Source: Pseudomonadota bacterium (GTDB taxonomy: Bacteria; Pseudomonadota; Gammaproteobacteria; Pseudomonadales; Moraxellaceae). From it: a stretch of 24,000 nt of DNA. The position numbers were made by a program, and so were the translations under genes. Positions 11,413 to 14,733 of the stretch are shown in pieces (positions within the stretch are counted from its first letter, which is position 1; every line of letters begins with the position of its first letter). The DNA lies in the NCBI GenBank assembly GCA_041165345.1, contig JBEANQ010000013.1:1-24000 (forward strand). Reading direction: 5' to 3'. The notes under the pieces are model-generated. The model worked only from the letters and a program-made list of their open reading frames with translations. It ran no database searches and was not told the DNA's origin.

Positions 11413-11459
11413 GTGGGTCATCATAGCGGGTTTAGGCCAGCTCAAATCGGCATTCCCGC
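11413..11459. repeat. Left copy of an imperfect direct repeat (decayed duplicate of the rhodanese 3' end)
   Basis: gtgggtcatcatagcgggtttaggccagctcaaatcggcattcccgc aligns with 14688-14733. By hand alignment, 41 of 47 columns are identical. Confidence 0.85.
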
Positions 11460-11580
11460 TTATCATGTTCACAATCGCTCGTGAACGCTTTAAAGCGGTT
11501 TAAGTTTTACCTCCTTGGAGAACTTGATCCATCTGTGTTGATAACATCTCCTGAAACTTGTGCTAAAAAACTATTTAAAT

Positions 11581-12400
11581 CATTAGACTTACTTCGAAAG
11601 TATAAAATCTATTAAACTGTACCCATGAAATACACTCAGTTTAGCGACCTATCGCCCGCACAGTTCAAACGCTATACAGGTTCAGTCCAGATACCTTTAG
11701 CCTGATGTGCGACGTTTTACAGCAACGAGAAGCCAGCAAGAAGAACTCTGGCCGACCGTCTAAGCTTTGCCTAGAAGATCATATTCTGATGGCTTTAACC
11801 TACTGGCGAGAGTATCGCACCCAGTTTCATATTGGGGTTGATTTTGGTGTAAGCGATGGTACAGCTTGTAAAATAATCAATCATGTAGAGGATCATCTGA
11901 TCCGCTCTGGTCATTTCAGGCTCAGCAAACGCATCCCTGATCAAGCCGGTGTTGAAGTGGACTGGGGTGTTGTGGTCGTTGACGCGACTGGTTGTTCATG
12001 CGAGTACAGGTTTGATTTTGAGCCTTGCTCACGGCACAGGTCGTATGCATGATTTCAAGCTATCTCAAAAATATGGCTTTGAATTGAAGGGTTCGGTCAG
12101 TGGTTGTTTGGTTGATAGTGGCTATCAAGGAATAGGTCATTTATTGTCAGATATTGTTGTTTTGCTTCCATTTAAATCAAGCAAGAAGAAACCGCTGTCC
12201 TGCATTAAGCGCCGAATCAACACAGAGATTAGTCGTCGTAGGATCATCGTTGAACATGCCATTCGAGGAATAAAGCTGTTTGCAATTTTACGAGAGCGAT
12301 ATCGGAGTGCTCGTCGTCGTTTTGGCCTTCGGTGTGCGTTGATTGCGGGTTTATACAACCTTGAATTGATCAAAAAATAATTTTCGAAGCAAGTCTAATG
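11581..12400 (+). mobile_element. Decayed IS element (IS5-family / Harbinger-like DDE_Tnp_4 type), 820 bp
   Basis: The terminal inverted repeats are CATTAGACTTACTTCGAAAG (11581-11600) and the reverse complement of 12381-12400, CATTAGACTTGCTTCGAAAA. They match at 18 of 20 positions, and the match extends 2 nt outward (AT). The transposase inside is broken. Confidence 0.8.
11625..12380 (+). pseudogene. Transposase pseudogene (HTH_Tnp_4 + DDE_Tnp_4 type) split into three frames
   Basis: The gene is in three pieces. Piece 1 is 11625-11705 (MKYTQFSDLSPAQFKRYTG, then frameshifted). Piece 2 is 11705-12052 (...GRPSKLCLEDHILMALTYWREYRTQFHIG...VVVDAT). Piece 3 is 11949-12380 (...STGLILSLAHGTGRMHDFKL...VDSGYQG...RRIIVEHAIRGIKLF). 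The stretch normally found between VVVDAT and the HDF motif appears to be deleted; this rests on my recollection of the family. Confidence 0.75.
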
Positions 12401-12638
12401 ATATATCTATTAAATTACCTGTATGACCATTGGTGCTGCTTGCTACACCTAACCAAAGTGCCAAACCCATGGCATCATCAAAGTTAACCTCAACGCCAAC
12501 CTTACTCATAGGAATTGTAAGTGCTAAATACTTATAGGCATCGGCATAGTTTTCTACAGTTTGAGCTTTATTTATCTCGACTAAGAGTTGGGCTTGCTGA
12601 GTTGCGGTTAACTGATAGGTGACAGGGTAATTGCTCAT
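12351..12638 (-). CDS. Small hypothetical protein; its 3' end runs into the IS
   Basis: The ATG overlaps the stop of the upstream lipoprotein gene (ATGA at 12635-12638). Codons below 12401 are IS-derived, so the present C-terminus (SLDLLRKLFFDQFKVV) is not native. No recognisable motifs. Confidence 0.5.
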   Translation of the reverse strand: MSNYPVTYQLTATQQAQLLVEINKAQTVENYADAYKYLALTIPMSKVGVEVNFDDAMGLALWLGVASSTNGHTGNLIDISLDLLRKLFFDQFKVV

Positions 12639-13459
12639 TGCTTCACTTCCTCTACGTGTGCTTTGATATAAGCCACAACGCGTTCATTGTTGATGATGAA
12701 CTGCTTAATAATTTCATGGTGATCGAGAATATCTTGATTACCCTGCACTGCTTGATAAAAATCATTGGCGAATTGGTTGTCAATTTTTGCAGTAAAAGAT
12801 GCATCGTCATTCGTCAAAAAATCCGATGTAAAGACTGAGTAATGCACCTCAAAATTCTCGCTTAAAAACGTGGTAATATCAAAAACTTTAGTAAAACCCG
12901 ACCCTTCAAGCTGAGGGCTGTAAGGAGTAAAATTAATCATGAGTCCATGTTTTTTATAGGGAAAATAATCAACTAATAAGGTCTGCATGTTTGGACCTCT
13001 CCGATAAAGCTGCATGTTGTTTTTTTTAGCTATTAGCCCTTGTCCATTATTGTCATAATAACGAACCCAGTAGTCATTATGATCAGGATGATGTGGTCCA
13101 TTTCCTAGATGGAATGAAGAGGTTTGTCGAATTTCTAAATCTGTGACATAGCCATCTTTTTGAAGTGGGCATACATACTGGTTATGGATATTACCTGAAA
13201 ATGTGGACTTTGGAAATTGCAGATACATACTAGATCTATATACATTCTCTTCTAGAGGAAAATGGCTATAATAAATGCATCTTGAAAATCGCAGGATTAA
13301 TTTTCTATTAATACCTTTGGCTGCTGATAGGGTGACTTTTACAGGGGATAACGGATCTTGATGCATAACGTTGCTCTGAGGGTTCTTAACGGAAAAAGTA
13401 GATAACCAATAGGCTCCACAACCGATGATCAACATGAGACTTGCAATTATTTTTTTCAA
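12635..13459 (-). CDS. Hypothetical lipoprotein (274 aa)
   Basis: TTG start. The N-terminus MKKIIASLMLIIGC has a basic start, a hydrophobic core and a lipobox-like IIGC. The rest has no motif I recognise. Codon usage is AT-rich. Confidence 0.6.
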   Translation of the reverse strand: MKKIIASLMLIIGCGAYWLSTFSVKNPQSNVMHQDPLSPVKVTLSAAKGINRKLILRFSRCIYYSHFPLEENVYRSSMYLQFPKSTFSGNIHNQYVCPLQKDGYVTDLEIRQTSSFHLGNGPHHPDHNDYWVRYYDNNGQGLIAKKNNMQLYRRGPNMQTLLVDYFPYKKHGLMINFTPYSPQLEGSGFTKVFDITTFLSENFEVHYSVFTSDFLTNDDASFTAKIDNQFANDFYQAVQGNQDILDHHEIIKQFIINNERVVAYIKAHVEEVKQ

Positions 13460-13639
13460 TTCGTCACGCCCATTGCAAAAATAAAATTAATTAAACCAGC
13501 GCCTATTGGTATTTCAAAAAATATGTTATTTATCGTATCGACCTTGCTGCGGTTATAAACGCAATATGAACTCTTCATAACGATTCAAATCCCAAGTGAC
13601 CACGTTAACAAGAATCACCAGCATGATTCTTTCTCAAAC

Positions 13640-14062
13640 CTATTCAGCCAACATCTGCTCAGCCAACACCGTCTGCACCACCCCCTCACCATCCACCTCA
13701 GCCGCAGGCCGTGCCTTCACCTGCAACAACCGCTCAGGCCGCCATTGCTTGGCAACCTCCATCAAGCTAAAGGTCTGGTTGACATAATTGGTCACCCCCT
13801 TGATCGCCTGTAGATACGCCGTCACCTCAGGCGTTTTTTCAGCAGCAACCATACGCACCGCACGACTGGGGTCAGCATGGTCAAAACGCACATACCACCA
13901 AGGCTCACCACGTTTTAAGGTGATCGGTGTAGACACATCACACCACTCAAACGCCCATATCAAATGACGCGGCCAAATATCAACATGAAAACGTCCACTC
14001 ACCATCAAACCCGGTAATGCCGGACTACGCCAAAACTGAAAAGGCGGAAGCTGATAAAAAGA
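13640..14062 (-). pseudogene. GC-normal gene remnant, apparently 5'-truncated
   Basis: The frame is open from 14062 down to the TAG at 13640-13642. The first possible starts are TTG 14008 and ATG 14005, with no convincing RBS. Composition switches to AT-rich exactly at its upstream end. Family unknown; I see a vague resemblance of ITLKRGEPWWYVRF to DUF6065-type proteins but do not trust it. Confidence 0.4.
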
Positions 14063-14599
14063 TTAAAATTGAAAATTGAAAATATAATGATAATTCGATC
14101 TAACACCTGATTCTCCAAACACTTGTATGGCATCCTTAATTAGCAATAGAATGGAGTCTCTGCTAACTTCTAATCCCTTAGGAATGACAATTTGGTTCAA
14201 AAACAGAGTGTAAGCTGAAATTTTATTTTCAGGATCGGATAGCTTTAAATTACCTTCATATAAAACAGAAAAATAGATGCGATAGCCCTTAATATATAAT
14301 AGATAATATGTAACCCCCAAATCTCCCCACGCCTCACGACCAAAACCGCCCCGACGAAGGTAAATCTCTTGTACTCGATCAATCGCAAAATGTTGCATTG
14401 ATGGGCGTTTTTTTGAATCAGCATCATTTGTGCTAGCTAGCAATATTTCGTCCAAAATTAGGTTCGAAAAAGTCCCTGTAAAGCGTTCTTTCTTACCATC
14501 TGGACGCTCAATAATCGGTTGCTGTATCAACTCCCAATCTTGCTGCATATCAAATCGCAACACATCTTGAGGGGTAATATACTCATTCACAAACACCAT
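14063..14599 (-). CDS. Hypothetical protein (178 aa from ATG 14599), orphan
   Basis: GGAG lies 7 nt upstream of ATG 14599 (MVFVNEYITPQDV...). The track start at 14656 lacks an RBS. AT-rich. No recognisable motifs, and no TM or signal peptide. Confidence 0.55.
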   Translation of the reverse strand: MVFVNEYITPQDVLRFDMQQDWELIQQPIIERPDGKKERFTGTFSNLILDEILLASTNDADSKKRPSMQHFAIDRVQEIYLRRGGFGREAWGDLGVTYYLLYIKGYRIYFSVLYEGNLKLSDPENKISAYTLFLNQIVIPKGLEVSRDSILLLIKDAIQVFGESGVRSNYHYIFNFQF

Positions 14600-14687
14600 G
14601 ACGCCGCTCCATTTTAAACAAGTACTATATTGATCCTCACAGACGAGGATCATCATTCATTGATTAGCAACCACTCTTTCCCGTTGT

Positions 14688-14733
14688 GTGCGTCATCATC
14701 GCGTGTTCAGCCCAGCTCAATCGGCATTCCCGC
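14688..14733. repeat. Right copy of the direct repeat (functional 3' end of the rhodanese gene plus 19 nt downstream)
   Basis: gtgcgtcatcatcgcgtgttcagcccagctcaatcggcattcccgc. It covers the last 8 codons (AGMPIELG), the stop, and 19 nt beyond the stop of CDS 14707-15018. Confidence 0.85.

What the first reader, a model, noticed from the sequence alone, without database searches (positions are those of the whole stretch)
11413..14733. AT-rich ~3.2-kb islet bounded by 46/47-nt direct repeats that duplicate the rhodanese 3' end
The left copy (11413-11459) and right copy (14688-14733) align with 41 identical positions over 47 columns: 5 substitutions and one 1-nt indel, by hand alignment.

The right copy holds the last 8 codons, the stop and 19 downstream nt of the rhodanese CDS. 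The left copy is a decayed duplicate in which the extra A creates an early TGA.

Between them, composition drops to 23/60 G+C in two counted lines, against 32-42/60 in flanking genes.

A gene 3' end duplicated at both borders of foreign-looking DNA is the classic footprint of site-specific integration (attL/attR). No integrase or recombinase remains, so this would be a stranded, decaying islet. It sits immediately upstream of a McrBC operon, which is a defence-island-like setting.
Basis: partly seen in the sequence, partly recalled or inferred. Interest (0 to 1): 0.7.

Follow-up and report, generated by a model that had tools for sequence, protein, structure and literature searches.

The report
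Integrase-less islet inserted in rhodanese gene end
A small piece of foreign, AT-rich DNA was spliced into the last eight codons of a rhodanese gene, bringing its own replacement gene end and pushing the original one 3.2 kb away. Close relatives still show the unoccupied site, so this is a well-documented but ordinary, now decaying, integrated islet.

Summary
The two copies (11413-11459 and 14688-14733) align as described, scoring 64 against a maximum of 29 in 300 shuffles. The DNA between them has 0.41 G+C, against 0.53 in the flanks.

Three independent metagenome contigs from a lineage about 97% identical carry yajQ-rhodanese-mcrB-mcrC with a single copy and nothing between. This is the predicted empty site. 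That single copy matches the left window copy at all four substitutions where the right copy departs from the empty site. So the left copy is the displaced native gene end (...IELA*). The outer 25 nt of the right copy came with the insert (...IELG*). The crossover lies in the shared 21-22 nt.

This is the geometry of a Campbell-type, most likely site-specific, integration, as with e14 in icd.

No recombinase is encoded in the islet or elsewhere in the 24 kb. The cargo is decayed and mosaic:
- an orphan 178-aa gene;
- a 5'-truncated fragment of a conserved 256-aa family;
- a putative lipoprotein with a small partner gene;
- a defective IS5-family copy.

McrBC belongs to the backbone, not to the islet. 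The recombinase and the donor remain unknown. Verdict: a new member of a known kind, of modest interest.

The parts
11413..11459 (-). Left repeat copy. This is the displaced native 3' end of the rhodanese gene (8 codons, stop, about 20 nt), now orphaned 65 nt upstream of mcrB. It is attR-like in the sense of the gene.
   Evidence: It aligns to the right copy. It matches the single copy of the empty-site contigs at all four positions where the right copy departs from that empty-site copy. It carries two private changes, C>A at 11425 and +A at 11444.
11460..11506 (-). Non-coding terminal segment of the islet (the P' side). It holds two small palindromes, GTTCAC-N8-GTGAAC at 11467-11486 and CGCTTTAAAGCG at 11486-11497.
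   Evidence: Sequence. Its folding is not better than shuffles (z = -1.1). Homology to the empty-site contigs stops exactly at 11459/11460.
11582..12399 (+). Defective IS5-family insertion sequence with 18-nt terminal inverted repeats (ATTAGACTTACTTCGAAA). It sits in the 3' end of the small gene o95.
   Evidence: Pfam HTH_Tnp_4 and DDE_Tnp_4; NCBIfam IS5 family. Inverted repeats. The ends were defined by comparison with a second copy in L047. Relative to that copy, the window copy lacks 1 nt at 11681/11682 and 81 nt at 11987/11988.
12351..12638 (-). o95, a small gene of unknown function overlapping o274 by 4 nt. Its last 16 codons now run into the IS.
   Evidence: ORF. No Pfam, NCBIfam, PADLOC or PHROG match. 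Reconstruction without the IS.
12635..13459 (-). o274, a putative lipoprotein (N-terminus MKKIIASLMLIIGC) of a rare family. Function unknown.
   Evidence: ORF. Only 25 representatives among 1.84 billion proteins. AlphaFold model with pLDDT 83 and pTM 0.82. No significant PDB fold match, best E = 9e-3. An 85%-identical copy sits alone between recO and pdxJ in L048. A 42% homologue sits next to an o122-family gene in L049.
13640..14055 (-). Delta-o122, a 5'-truncated fragment (C-terminal about 139 codons) of a conserved ~256-aa hypothetical protein family. Its G+C is host-like (0.535).
   Evidence: The full-length gene in L031 is 97-98% identical over this part. The family has 218 homologues and no Pfam. 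A nearly invariant Pro is changed to His in the window copy. G+C.
14063..14599 (-). o197 (real CDS 178 aa, from the ATG at 14599), an orphan AT-rich gene of unknown function next to the gene-proximal border.
   Evidence: Only 6 homologues among 5.8 billion proteins. Several alleles exist in related contigs. The structure prediction is unusable, pLDDT 39.6.
14631..14652 (-). Perfect 8-bp stem hairpin (TGATCCTC-N6-GAGGATCA) between the right copy and o197. Its role is unknown.
   Evidence: Sequence; fold (region z = -1.1, not significant).
14688..14733 (-). Right repeat copy, the present 3' end of the rhodanese gene. The outer 25 nt (14688-14712) were supplied by the element. The inner 21-22 nt are identical to the native site and contain the crossover.
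   Evidence: It is 4/25 different from the empty-site sequence in the outer part and 0/21 different in the inner part. It is identical in all islet-bearing contigs: L001, L002, L003 and L029.
14707..15018 (-). Rhodanese gene (103 aa), the integration target. It ends ...IELG* here and ...IELA* in the empty-site lineage.
   Evidence: Pfam Rhodanese. P0127 is 96% identical and ends in ELA.
8736..11347 (-). The mcrB-mcrC operon. It is backbone context, not part of the islet. In the empty-site lineage it starts 84 nt after the rhodanese stop.
   Evidence: Pfam AAA_5 and McrBC. Gene order in L034-L036.

Best explanation
**The event.** A circular piece of foreign, AT-rich DNA of about 2.4 kb recombined Campbell-fashion with the last eight codons of the chromosomal rhodanese gene. 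It carried a 46-nt imitation of the rhodanese 3' end. The crossover fell in the 21-22 nt that the two partners share (CAGCTCAATCGGCATTCCCGC).

**The consequences.** The rhodanese gene now ends with element-supplied sequence (...IELG, TGA). Its original end (...IELA, TAA) was carried to the far side of the insert, just upstream of mcrB. The short length of the repeat, its position on a gene terminus and the identity block at the gene-proximal edge point to a site-specific recombinase. The element either has since lost its recombinase gene or never encoded one and relied on one supplied in trans.

**Afterwards.**
- The islet became a stranded passenger.
- An IS5-family element, now itself defective, landed in its small distal gene o95.
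- One of its genes is only a 5'-truncated fragment.
- Its cargo genes are exchanged between strains.
- The rhodanese-plus-islet block spreads among lineages by ordinary homologous recombination in the flanks.

**Shown:** the insertion, its exact borders, which copy is native, the empty site, the decay, and the spread by flanking recombination.

**Inferred:** the circular intermediate, the site-specific recombinase and its loss.
For: **The repeat is real.** It sits at the stated coordinates and is far above chance.

**Empty site.** Three independent samples show one copy and rhodanese-mcrB adjacency. The window differs from them by exactly the 3,274 nt between the copies.

**Which copy is native.** The empty-site copy equals the left copy at all four substitutions where the right copy departs from the empty site. 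It equals the right copy only where the left copy carries private changes.

**The outer arm looks foreign.** Divergence of the right copy's outer arm from the native site is 4/25. This compares with about 3.3-3.5% in the adjoining mcrB and rhodanese DNA, where differences are evenly spread.

**Composition.** G+C is 0.40 against 0.53, and GC3 is 0.32-0.34 against 0.53-0.62.

**No recombinase.** None is found in the islet or in the 24 kb.

**Decay.** There is a truncated o122 fragment and an IS copy with 1-nt and 81-nt deletions.

**Spread by flanking recombination.** L003 is 91.2% identical to the window in yajQ but 98.6-100% identical from the intergenic region through rhodanese into the islet.

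**Precedents with the same geometry.** e14 in icd leaves a 163-bp displaced pseudo-icd and replaces the gene end. DLP12 at argU has a 47-bp repeat (PMC6379469). Integrase-less att-flanked remnants are defined as CIMEs (PMC5704250).
Against: - No recombinase gene, attP-bearing circle or second independent insertion at this site was found. A degenerate pattern covering both copies gave 0 hits in the metagenome and viral collections.
- No recognisable remnant of a phage, ICE or IME lies in the islet.
- The two islet genes o197 and o274 occur elsewhere as solitary insertions without flanking repeats (L030; L048). So these genes also move by some route that leaves no att-like scar.
- The 21-nt identity block could be chance at about 90% identity.
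- The excess divergence of the outer arm is only suggestive, because that arm is largely non-coding.
Confidence: 0.65

Rival explanations
1. Import by natural transformation with one homologous and one illegitimate crossover (homology-facilitated illegitimate recombination). Linear DNA came from a related lineage whose rhodanese gene is natively followed by the o197 cluster. It recombined homologously within rhodanese/yajQ. Its far end was joined illegitimately inside the recipient's own rhodanese 3' end, which happened to duplicate 46 nt. No att site or integrase is involved.
For: - The organism is a member of the Moraxellaceae, a family that includes naturally transformable Acinetobacter, in which this process has been studied (PMC8116780).
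- The rhodanese-plus-islet block demonstrably moves between lineages by flanking homologous recombination.
- o197 and o274 are found elsewhere as lone insertions without flanking repeats.
- No recombinase is present.
Against: - The model needs the illegitimate joint to fall by chance within 24 nt of the stop codon, giving a duplication rather than the usual deletion (general knowledge of this process).
- The rhodanese body shows no donor-type tract. Differences from the empty-site lineage are evenly spread at about 3.5%, whereas the 25-nt arm differs at 16%.
- The perfect 21-22-nt block sits exactly where a crossover site is expected.
Confidence: 0.2
2. RecA-dependent single crossover of a circular DNA through the 46-nt homeologous stretch (22 nt identical), with no dedicated recombinase. 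The circle could be, for example, an excised or transformed fragment from another rhodanese locus.
For: This has the same Campbell geometry as observed. No recombinase gene is present. The islet contains a host-like gene fragment, Delta-o122 with G+C 0.535. This shows it was assembled by recombination inside a genome of similar composition.
Against: A stretch of 22 identical nt within 46 nt is at or below the minimum length usually efficient for RecA-mediated exchange (established knowledge; not tested here). A source for such a circle is not evident.
Confidence: 0.1
3. The 46-nt sequence is a dispersed REP-like or terminator repeat, and the two copies flank the AT-rich DNA by coincidence.
For: None was found. 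A whole genome could not be examined.
Against: - There is no other copy in the window at up to 3 mismatches.
- In the 47 loci the pattern occurs only at these junctions, and there are 0 hits in the metagenome and viral scans.
- Neither copy folds better than shuffles (z = -1.3 and +1.25).
- The empty site shows that the duplication arose together with the insertion.
Confidence: 0.02

Closest known systems
Prophage e14 in the icd gene (and DLP12 at argU) of Escherichia coli
   Same: Integration is into the 3' end of a gene. The element supplies a slightly different replacement gene end. The native end is displaced to the far border as a pseudo-fragment, so that similar but not identical attL/attR repeats flank the insert. 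The repeats are 163 bp for e14 and 47 bp for DLP12 (PMC6379469).
   Different: Those elements are prophages of 15-20 kb that encode their own integrase. This islet is 2.4 kb plus an IS, with no integrase and no phage genes. The target, a single-domain rhodanese gene, is not to my knowledge a described attachment site.
[quoted passage not shown]
   Same: It is bounded by att-like repeats at a gene 3' end, with no recombinase or transfer genes. It is potentially mobilisable only in trans (definition in PMC5704250).
   Different: No remnant shows that the islet descends from an ICE or IME. No cognate element with an integrase of the same specificity was seen. CIMEs are described mainly in streptococci.
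Small genomic islets (<10 kb) at hot spots of the flexible genome
   Same: Low G+C, strain-variable cargo of unknown function, presence/absence polymorphism among lineages about 97% identical, and internal allelic replacement.
   Different: Most such islets have no defined border repeats. This one has a precisely resolved insertion scar and an empty site.
Foreign DNA acquired by homology-facilitated illegitimate recombination in naturally transformable Acinetobacter
   Same: The same bacterial family. Acquisition needs no mobility genes. One side is anchored in a conserved gene (PMC8116780).
   Different: That process normally deletes recipient DNA rather than duplicating it, and it does not predict an identity block at the gene-proximal edge of a short repeat.

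Membership tests
Site-specifically integrated genomic island/islet (integrase type, as e14/icd) | Direct repeats at both borders, one of them overlapping the 3' end of the target gene | tested here: met
   11413-11459 and 14688-14733. The alignment scores 64 against at most 29 in shuffles. The right copy covers 8 codons, the stop and 19 nt.
Site-specifically integrated genomic island/islet (integrase type, as e14/icd) | An unoccupied site with a single copy in close relatives, with the insertion being exactly the DNA between the copies | tested here: met
   L034, L035 and L036 come from three runs and show rhodanese, one copy, then mcrB. The window has an extra 3,274 nt.
Site-specifically integrated genomic island/islet (integrase type, as e14/icd) | The element supplies a substitute gene end, and the native end is displaced to the distal border | tested here: met
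   The empty-site copy matches the left copy at all four diagnostic substitutions. The protein ends in ELA in P0127 and in ELG in the window.
Site-specifically integrated genomic island/islet (integrase type, as e14/icd) | An integrase or recombinase gene within the element | tested here: not met
   No Phage_integrase, Resolvase or Recombinase hit in any islet or window ORF. The only mobility gene is a defective IS5-family transposase.
Site-specifically integrated genomic island/islet (integrase type, as e14/icd) | attP on a circular or other form of the element, or independent insertions at the same core | tested here: inconclusive
   A degenerate pattern matching both copies gave 0 hits in metagenome contigs and viral contigs. 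However, those collections also lack this organism's own contigs.
CIME (cis-mobilizable element) | attL and attR retained; integration and transfer genes absent | tested here: met
   The structure is as described above, and no such genes are present. Definition from PMC5704250.
CIME (cis-mobilizable element) | Descent from an ICE or IME, and a cognate element able to excise or mobilise it | not testable with these tools
   No ICE or IME remnant is seen in the islet. The rest of the genome is not available.
IS or composite-transposon insertion | IS copies or terminal inverted repeats at the borders, and a short identical target duplication | tested here: not met
   There is a single internal IS (11582-12399), 122 nt from the left border. 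The border repeats are 46-47 nt long and non-identical.
REP-like dispersed repeat | Many copies in the genome and a stable hairpin | tested here: not met
   No extra copies in the window or in the 47 loci. Folding z-scores are -1.3 and +1.25. A whole genome was not available.
Defence island cargo | Islet genes belong to known defence families, or the islet travels together with the adjacent defence system | tested here: not met
   There are no PADLOC hits for o95, o274, Delta-o122 or o197. McrBC is present without the islet in L034-L036.
Homology-facilitated illegitimate recombination product | A donor-type sequence tract in the anchoring gene and a microhomology joint at the other end | tested here: inconclusive
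   No tract of elevated divergence is seen in the rhodanese body. The donor sequence beyond the joint is unknown, so microhomology cannot be assessed.

The most novel reading that the evidence does not exclude
The islet is not a dead remnant. It would be a minimal, non-autonomous integrative cassette whose 46-nt rhodanese-end mimic is recognised by a recombinase encoded elsewhere in the genome or on a helper element. The gene-sized, AT-rich units o197 and o274 turn up alone between housekeeping genes in other Moraxellaceae/Pseudomonadota contigs, and alternate with variable 'MPQTNN...' proteins in related contigs. On this reading they would be cargo of an undescribed trans-mobilised cassette system, possibly a polymorphic toxin-immunity-like repertoire.
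Probability: 0.08. Interest if true: 0.6.

Novelty: new member of a known kind. Interest (0 to 1): 0.3.

Why it matters
**What it offers.** This is a clean, fully resolved example of gene-end-replacing integration in an uncultured Moraxellaceae lineage. Both junctions, the empty site and the polarity (which copy is native) are determined from metagenome contigs alone. It adds a single-domain rhodanese gene to the list of protein-coding integration targets. It also shows how an integrase-less islet persists: it spreads with its flanks by homologous recombination while its cargo is swapped.

**Practical consequences.**
- The rhodanese protein of islet carriers has an element-derived C-terminal residue.
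- mcrBC is separated from the gene it directly follows in the ancestral arrangement. This could alter expression of the restriction system.

Neither point changes current understanding of mobile elements.

Tried and rejected
1. **GTDB genome scan with the rhodanese protein.** The nearest genomes are Aquirhabdus-like MAGs at about 62% identity. There rhodanese is followed by dinB. They are too distant to define an empty site.
2. **Exact look-ups of window proteins.** These returned only islet-bearing contigs, which break at the IS.
3. **Degenerate DNA pattern for both repeat copies.** It gave 0 hits in metagenome contigs and viral contigs.
4. **IS DNA against PLSDB plasmids.** No match.
5. **Function of the islet genes.**
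   - Pfam, NCBIfam, PADLOC and PHROGs found nothing for o95, o274 or o197.
   - The o197 structure came out at pLDDT 39.6 and was discarded.
   - The o274 model is confident but has no significant PDB match.
   - A profile of the o122 family has no sequence relative in the PDB. Its viral relatives are only 22-26% identical.
6. **Signals at the borders.** The hairpins do not fold better than shuffles. The promoter/terminator scan found nothing informative and no sigma-70-like site between the left copy and mcrB.
7. **Flanking repeats around the lone o197 fragment (L030) and the lone o274 copy (L048).** None found. The rhodanese-type scar is therefore not a general signature of these genes.
8. 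**Integron cassette, XerCD/dif module and Tn7-like readings.** All rejected: no IntI, no dif-like or attC-like sites, and no matching transposition genes.

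
Full report
**1. Observation**

A local alignment of the two 300-nt neighbourhoods gives 11412-11459 against 14687-14733, with 5 substitutions and one 1-nt indel. The score is 64. In 300 shuffles the mean was 17.9 and the maximum 29. The repeat finder finds the same pair, with a perfect 15-nt block at the right end.

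The right copy comprises the last 8 codons, the stop and 19 downstream nt of a minus-strand rhodanese gene (14707-15018, 103 aa; Pfam Rhodanese). The extra A in the left copy creates an early TGA.

The interval is compositionally distinct:
- G+C is 0.408, or 0.400 without the IS, against 0.538 and 0.525 in the flanks.
- The lowest equally long window elsewhere is 0.476.
- GC3 is 0.32-0.34, against 0.53-0.62 in the flanking genes.

**2. Content of the islet**

Read on the minus strand, going away from the rhodanese gene:
- An 8-bp-stem hairpin (14631-14652).
- o197 (real CDS 14063-14599, 178 aa). It has only six homologues among 5.8 billion proteins.
- A 5'-truncated fragment (13640-14055) of a conserved ~256-aa hypothetical family. 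The family has 218 homologues, and neither Pfam nor a PDB sequence search finds a relative (family). The full-length gene occurs in contig L031 at 97-98% identity. The fragment has host-like G+C of 0.535.
- o274 (12635-13459), a putative lipoprotein of a rare family with 25 representatives in 1.84 billion proteins. Its model is confident at pLDDT 83, but no PDB fold matches.
- o95 (12351-12638), which overlaps o274 by 4 nt.
- An IS5-family element (11582-12399) sitting in the end of o95. Compared with a second copy in L047, the window copy lacks 1 nt and 81 nt, so it is defective.
- 47 nt of non-coding DNA up to the left copy.

No integrase, resolvase or other site-specific recombinase is encoded in the islet or anywhere in the window (gene tables).

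**3. The decisive comparison**

The organism is an uncultured member of the Moraxellaceae. The nearest species-level genomes are Aquirhabdus-like MAGs with only about 62% rhodanese identity. They have dinB downstream of rhodanese, so they cannot serve as an empty site.

A homologue search with the rhodanese protein returned P0127, which is 96% identical. Its contigs L034, L035 and L036 come from three different sequencing runs. They carry yajQ-rhodanese-mcrB-mcrC-MBL hydrolase-methyltransferase-CreD, with mcrB starting 84 nt after the rhodanese stop.

Aligned to the window, these contigs match 15144-14688 and 11459-4982 at 96-98% identity. The 46 nt are present once and match both junctions. 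The window therefore carries an insertion of exactly 3,274 nt.

| Site | Sequence |
|---|---|
| Empty site | GTGGGTCATCATCGCGGGTTTAGGCCAGCTCAATCGGCATTCCCGC |
| Left window copy | Differs from the empty site only by C>A and +A |
| Right window copy | Differs at four positions, all within the outer 25 nt; identical over the inner 21-22 nt |

It follows that:
- the left copy is the displaced native end, which encodes ...IELA, TAA without the extra A;
- the outer part of the right copy came with the insert (...IELG, TGA);
- the exchange took place in the shared block next to the rhodanese body.

P0127 indeed ends in ELA.

Differences between the window and the empty-site lineage are evenly spread. 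They run at about 3.3% on the mcrB side and 3.5% in the rhodanese body. Against this, 4/25 in the outer arm stands out, though only modestly, because that arm is mostly non-coding.

**4. Mechanism**

[quoted passage not shown] The same geometry is documented for e14 in icd (163-bp displaced pseudo-icd, altered terminal codon) and DLP12 at argU (47-bp repeat) (PMC6379469).

I consider catalysis by a site-specific recombinase the most likely reading, at about 0.65. The reasons are that the similarity is short, covers exactly the gene terminus, and is perfect at the gene-proximal edge. With no recombinase left, the islet matches the operational definition of a CIME: attL and attR retained, integration genes lost (PMC5704250). 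Nothing, however, shows descent from an ICE or IME.

Two rivals remain:
- **Homology-facilitated illegitimate recombination after natural transformation (about 0.2).** This is plausible in this family (PMC8116780). It is supported indirectly because o197 and o274 occur elsewhere as lone, repeat-less insertions. An o197 fragment lies between nadB and rapA in L030. o274 lies between recO and pdxJ in L048.
- **A RecA-dependent single crossover through the 46-nt stretch (about 0.1).**

A dispersed-repeat explanation is excluded as far as the data go.

**5. Later history**

The islet is polymorphic among close lineages:
- L001 carries a divergent 3' half of o197, at 71% identity.
- L003 carries an unrelated 286-aa gene in place of o274-o95, with homology to the window ending at the stop codon of the o122 fragment.
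- L003 is only 91.2% identical to the window in yajQ, but 98.6-100% identical from the yajQ-rhodanese intergenic region through the right copy into the islet. The rhodanese-plus-islet block has therefore been passed between lineages by homologous recombination in the flanks.

Related contigs show the same gene units in other orders:
- L031 and L047: full-length o122, then an o197 allele, then a 167-aa 'MPQTNN...' protein, then the IS.
- L046: a fragment of such a protein, then an o197 allele, then a 127-aa protein with the same N-terminus and a different C-terminus, then the 285-aa gene.
- L049: in an AT-rich Acinetobacter-like contig, an o274 homologue and an o122 homologue are neighbours.

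The cargo is thus a fragment of a recombining, polymorphic gene set of unknown function.

**6.

McrBC is backbone, not part of a mobile defence context. It sits in the same place in the empty-site lineage, and no islet gene matches a defence family. The left copy is the native end rather than a decayed copy of the present one.

One possible consequence is inferred only. No sigma-70-like promoter was found between the left copy and mcrB. The insertion may therefore have uncoupled mcrBC from transcription coming through the rhodanese gene.

**7. Verdict**

This is a new member of a known kind. Its interest is modest: the anatomy is unusually well resolved, but the phenomenon is classical. The recombinase, the donor and the cargo function remain unknown.

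Noticed in passing
window 13640-14055; L031 3-809; proteins P0007-P0126: The truncated fragment belongs to a well-conserved ~256-aa protein family. It is about 50% identical between Alpha- and Gammaproteobacteria, includes Acinetobacter baumannii, and has 218 hits. It has no Pfam model and no relative in the PDB by sequence. It has a weak PHROG 17480 match and 22-26% identical relatives on viral contigs. In L032 it lies next to a C39-peptidase ABC exporter and its HlyD-type partner.
   Followed up: partly
L031 1484-1987; L047 770-1273; L046 3-200 and 913-1296: These proteins share the N-terminus MPQTNNSAVLAVINQLGYPA... but have different C-terminal parts. They alternate with alleles of o197 in related contigs. 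The layout is reminiscent of polymorphic toxin-immunity arrays. No toxin or immunity domain was detected.
   Followed up: partly
window 12635-13459 (o274) and L048 1469-2293, L049 2684-3481: This is a rare putative lipoprotein family, with 25 representatives in 1.84 billion proteins. The AlphaFold model is confident (pLDDT 83), but no significant PDB fold match was found. An 85%-identical copy sits alone between recO and pdxJ in another contig, with homology limited to the gene itself.
   Followed up: partly
window 3646-4782 (G+C dip at about 3250-5250): A Fic/DUF4172 protein matches the PADLOC SoFic model (E = 4e-42). It lies in a patch of lower G+C (0.45-0.51) between a two-component system and creD, and may be another small acquired segment.
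   Followed up: no
window 10052-11347 (mcrB): This McrB homologue has its Walker A motif (GPAGTGKT) at residues 14-21, but the AAA_5 match covers only residues 160-293. That suggests an insertion of about 130 residues inside the ATPase domain, and no separate N-terminal DNA-binding domain.
   Followed up: no
window 16137-17381 and 17496-18731: Two adjacent GGDEF-domain genes are paralogues, with about 70% nucleotide identity over 390-nt stretches. This is a tandem duplication.
   Followed up: no
window 15028-15062; window 4940-4981: Contig L029 is otherwise 100% identical to the window but lacks 35 nt of the yajQ-rhodanese intergenic region. The window has about 43 nt near 4940-4981 that do not align to the empty-site contig L034.
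   Followed up: no
L030 10001-10393: A 5'-truncated o197 homologue, 80% identical at the nucleotide level, lies between the convergent nadB and rapA genes of an unrelated Pseudomonadota MAG. No flanking repeats are present.
   Followed up: yes
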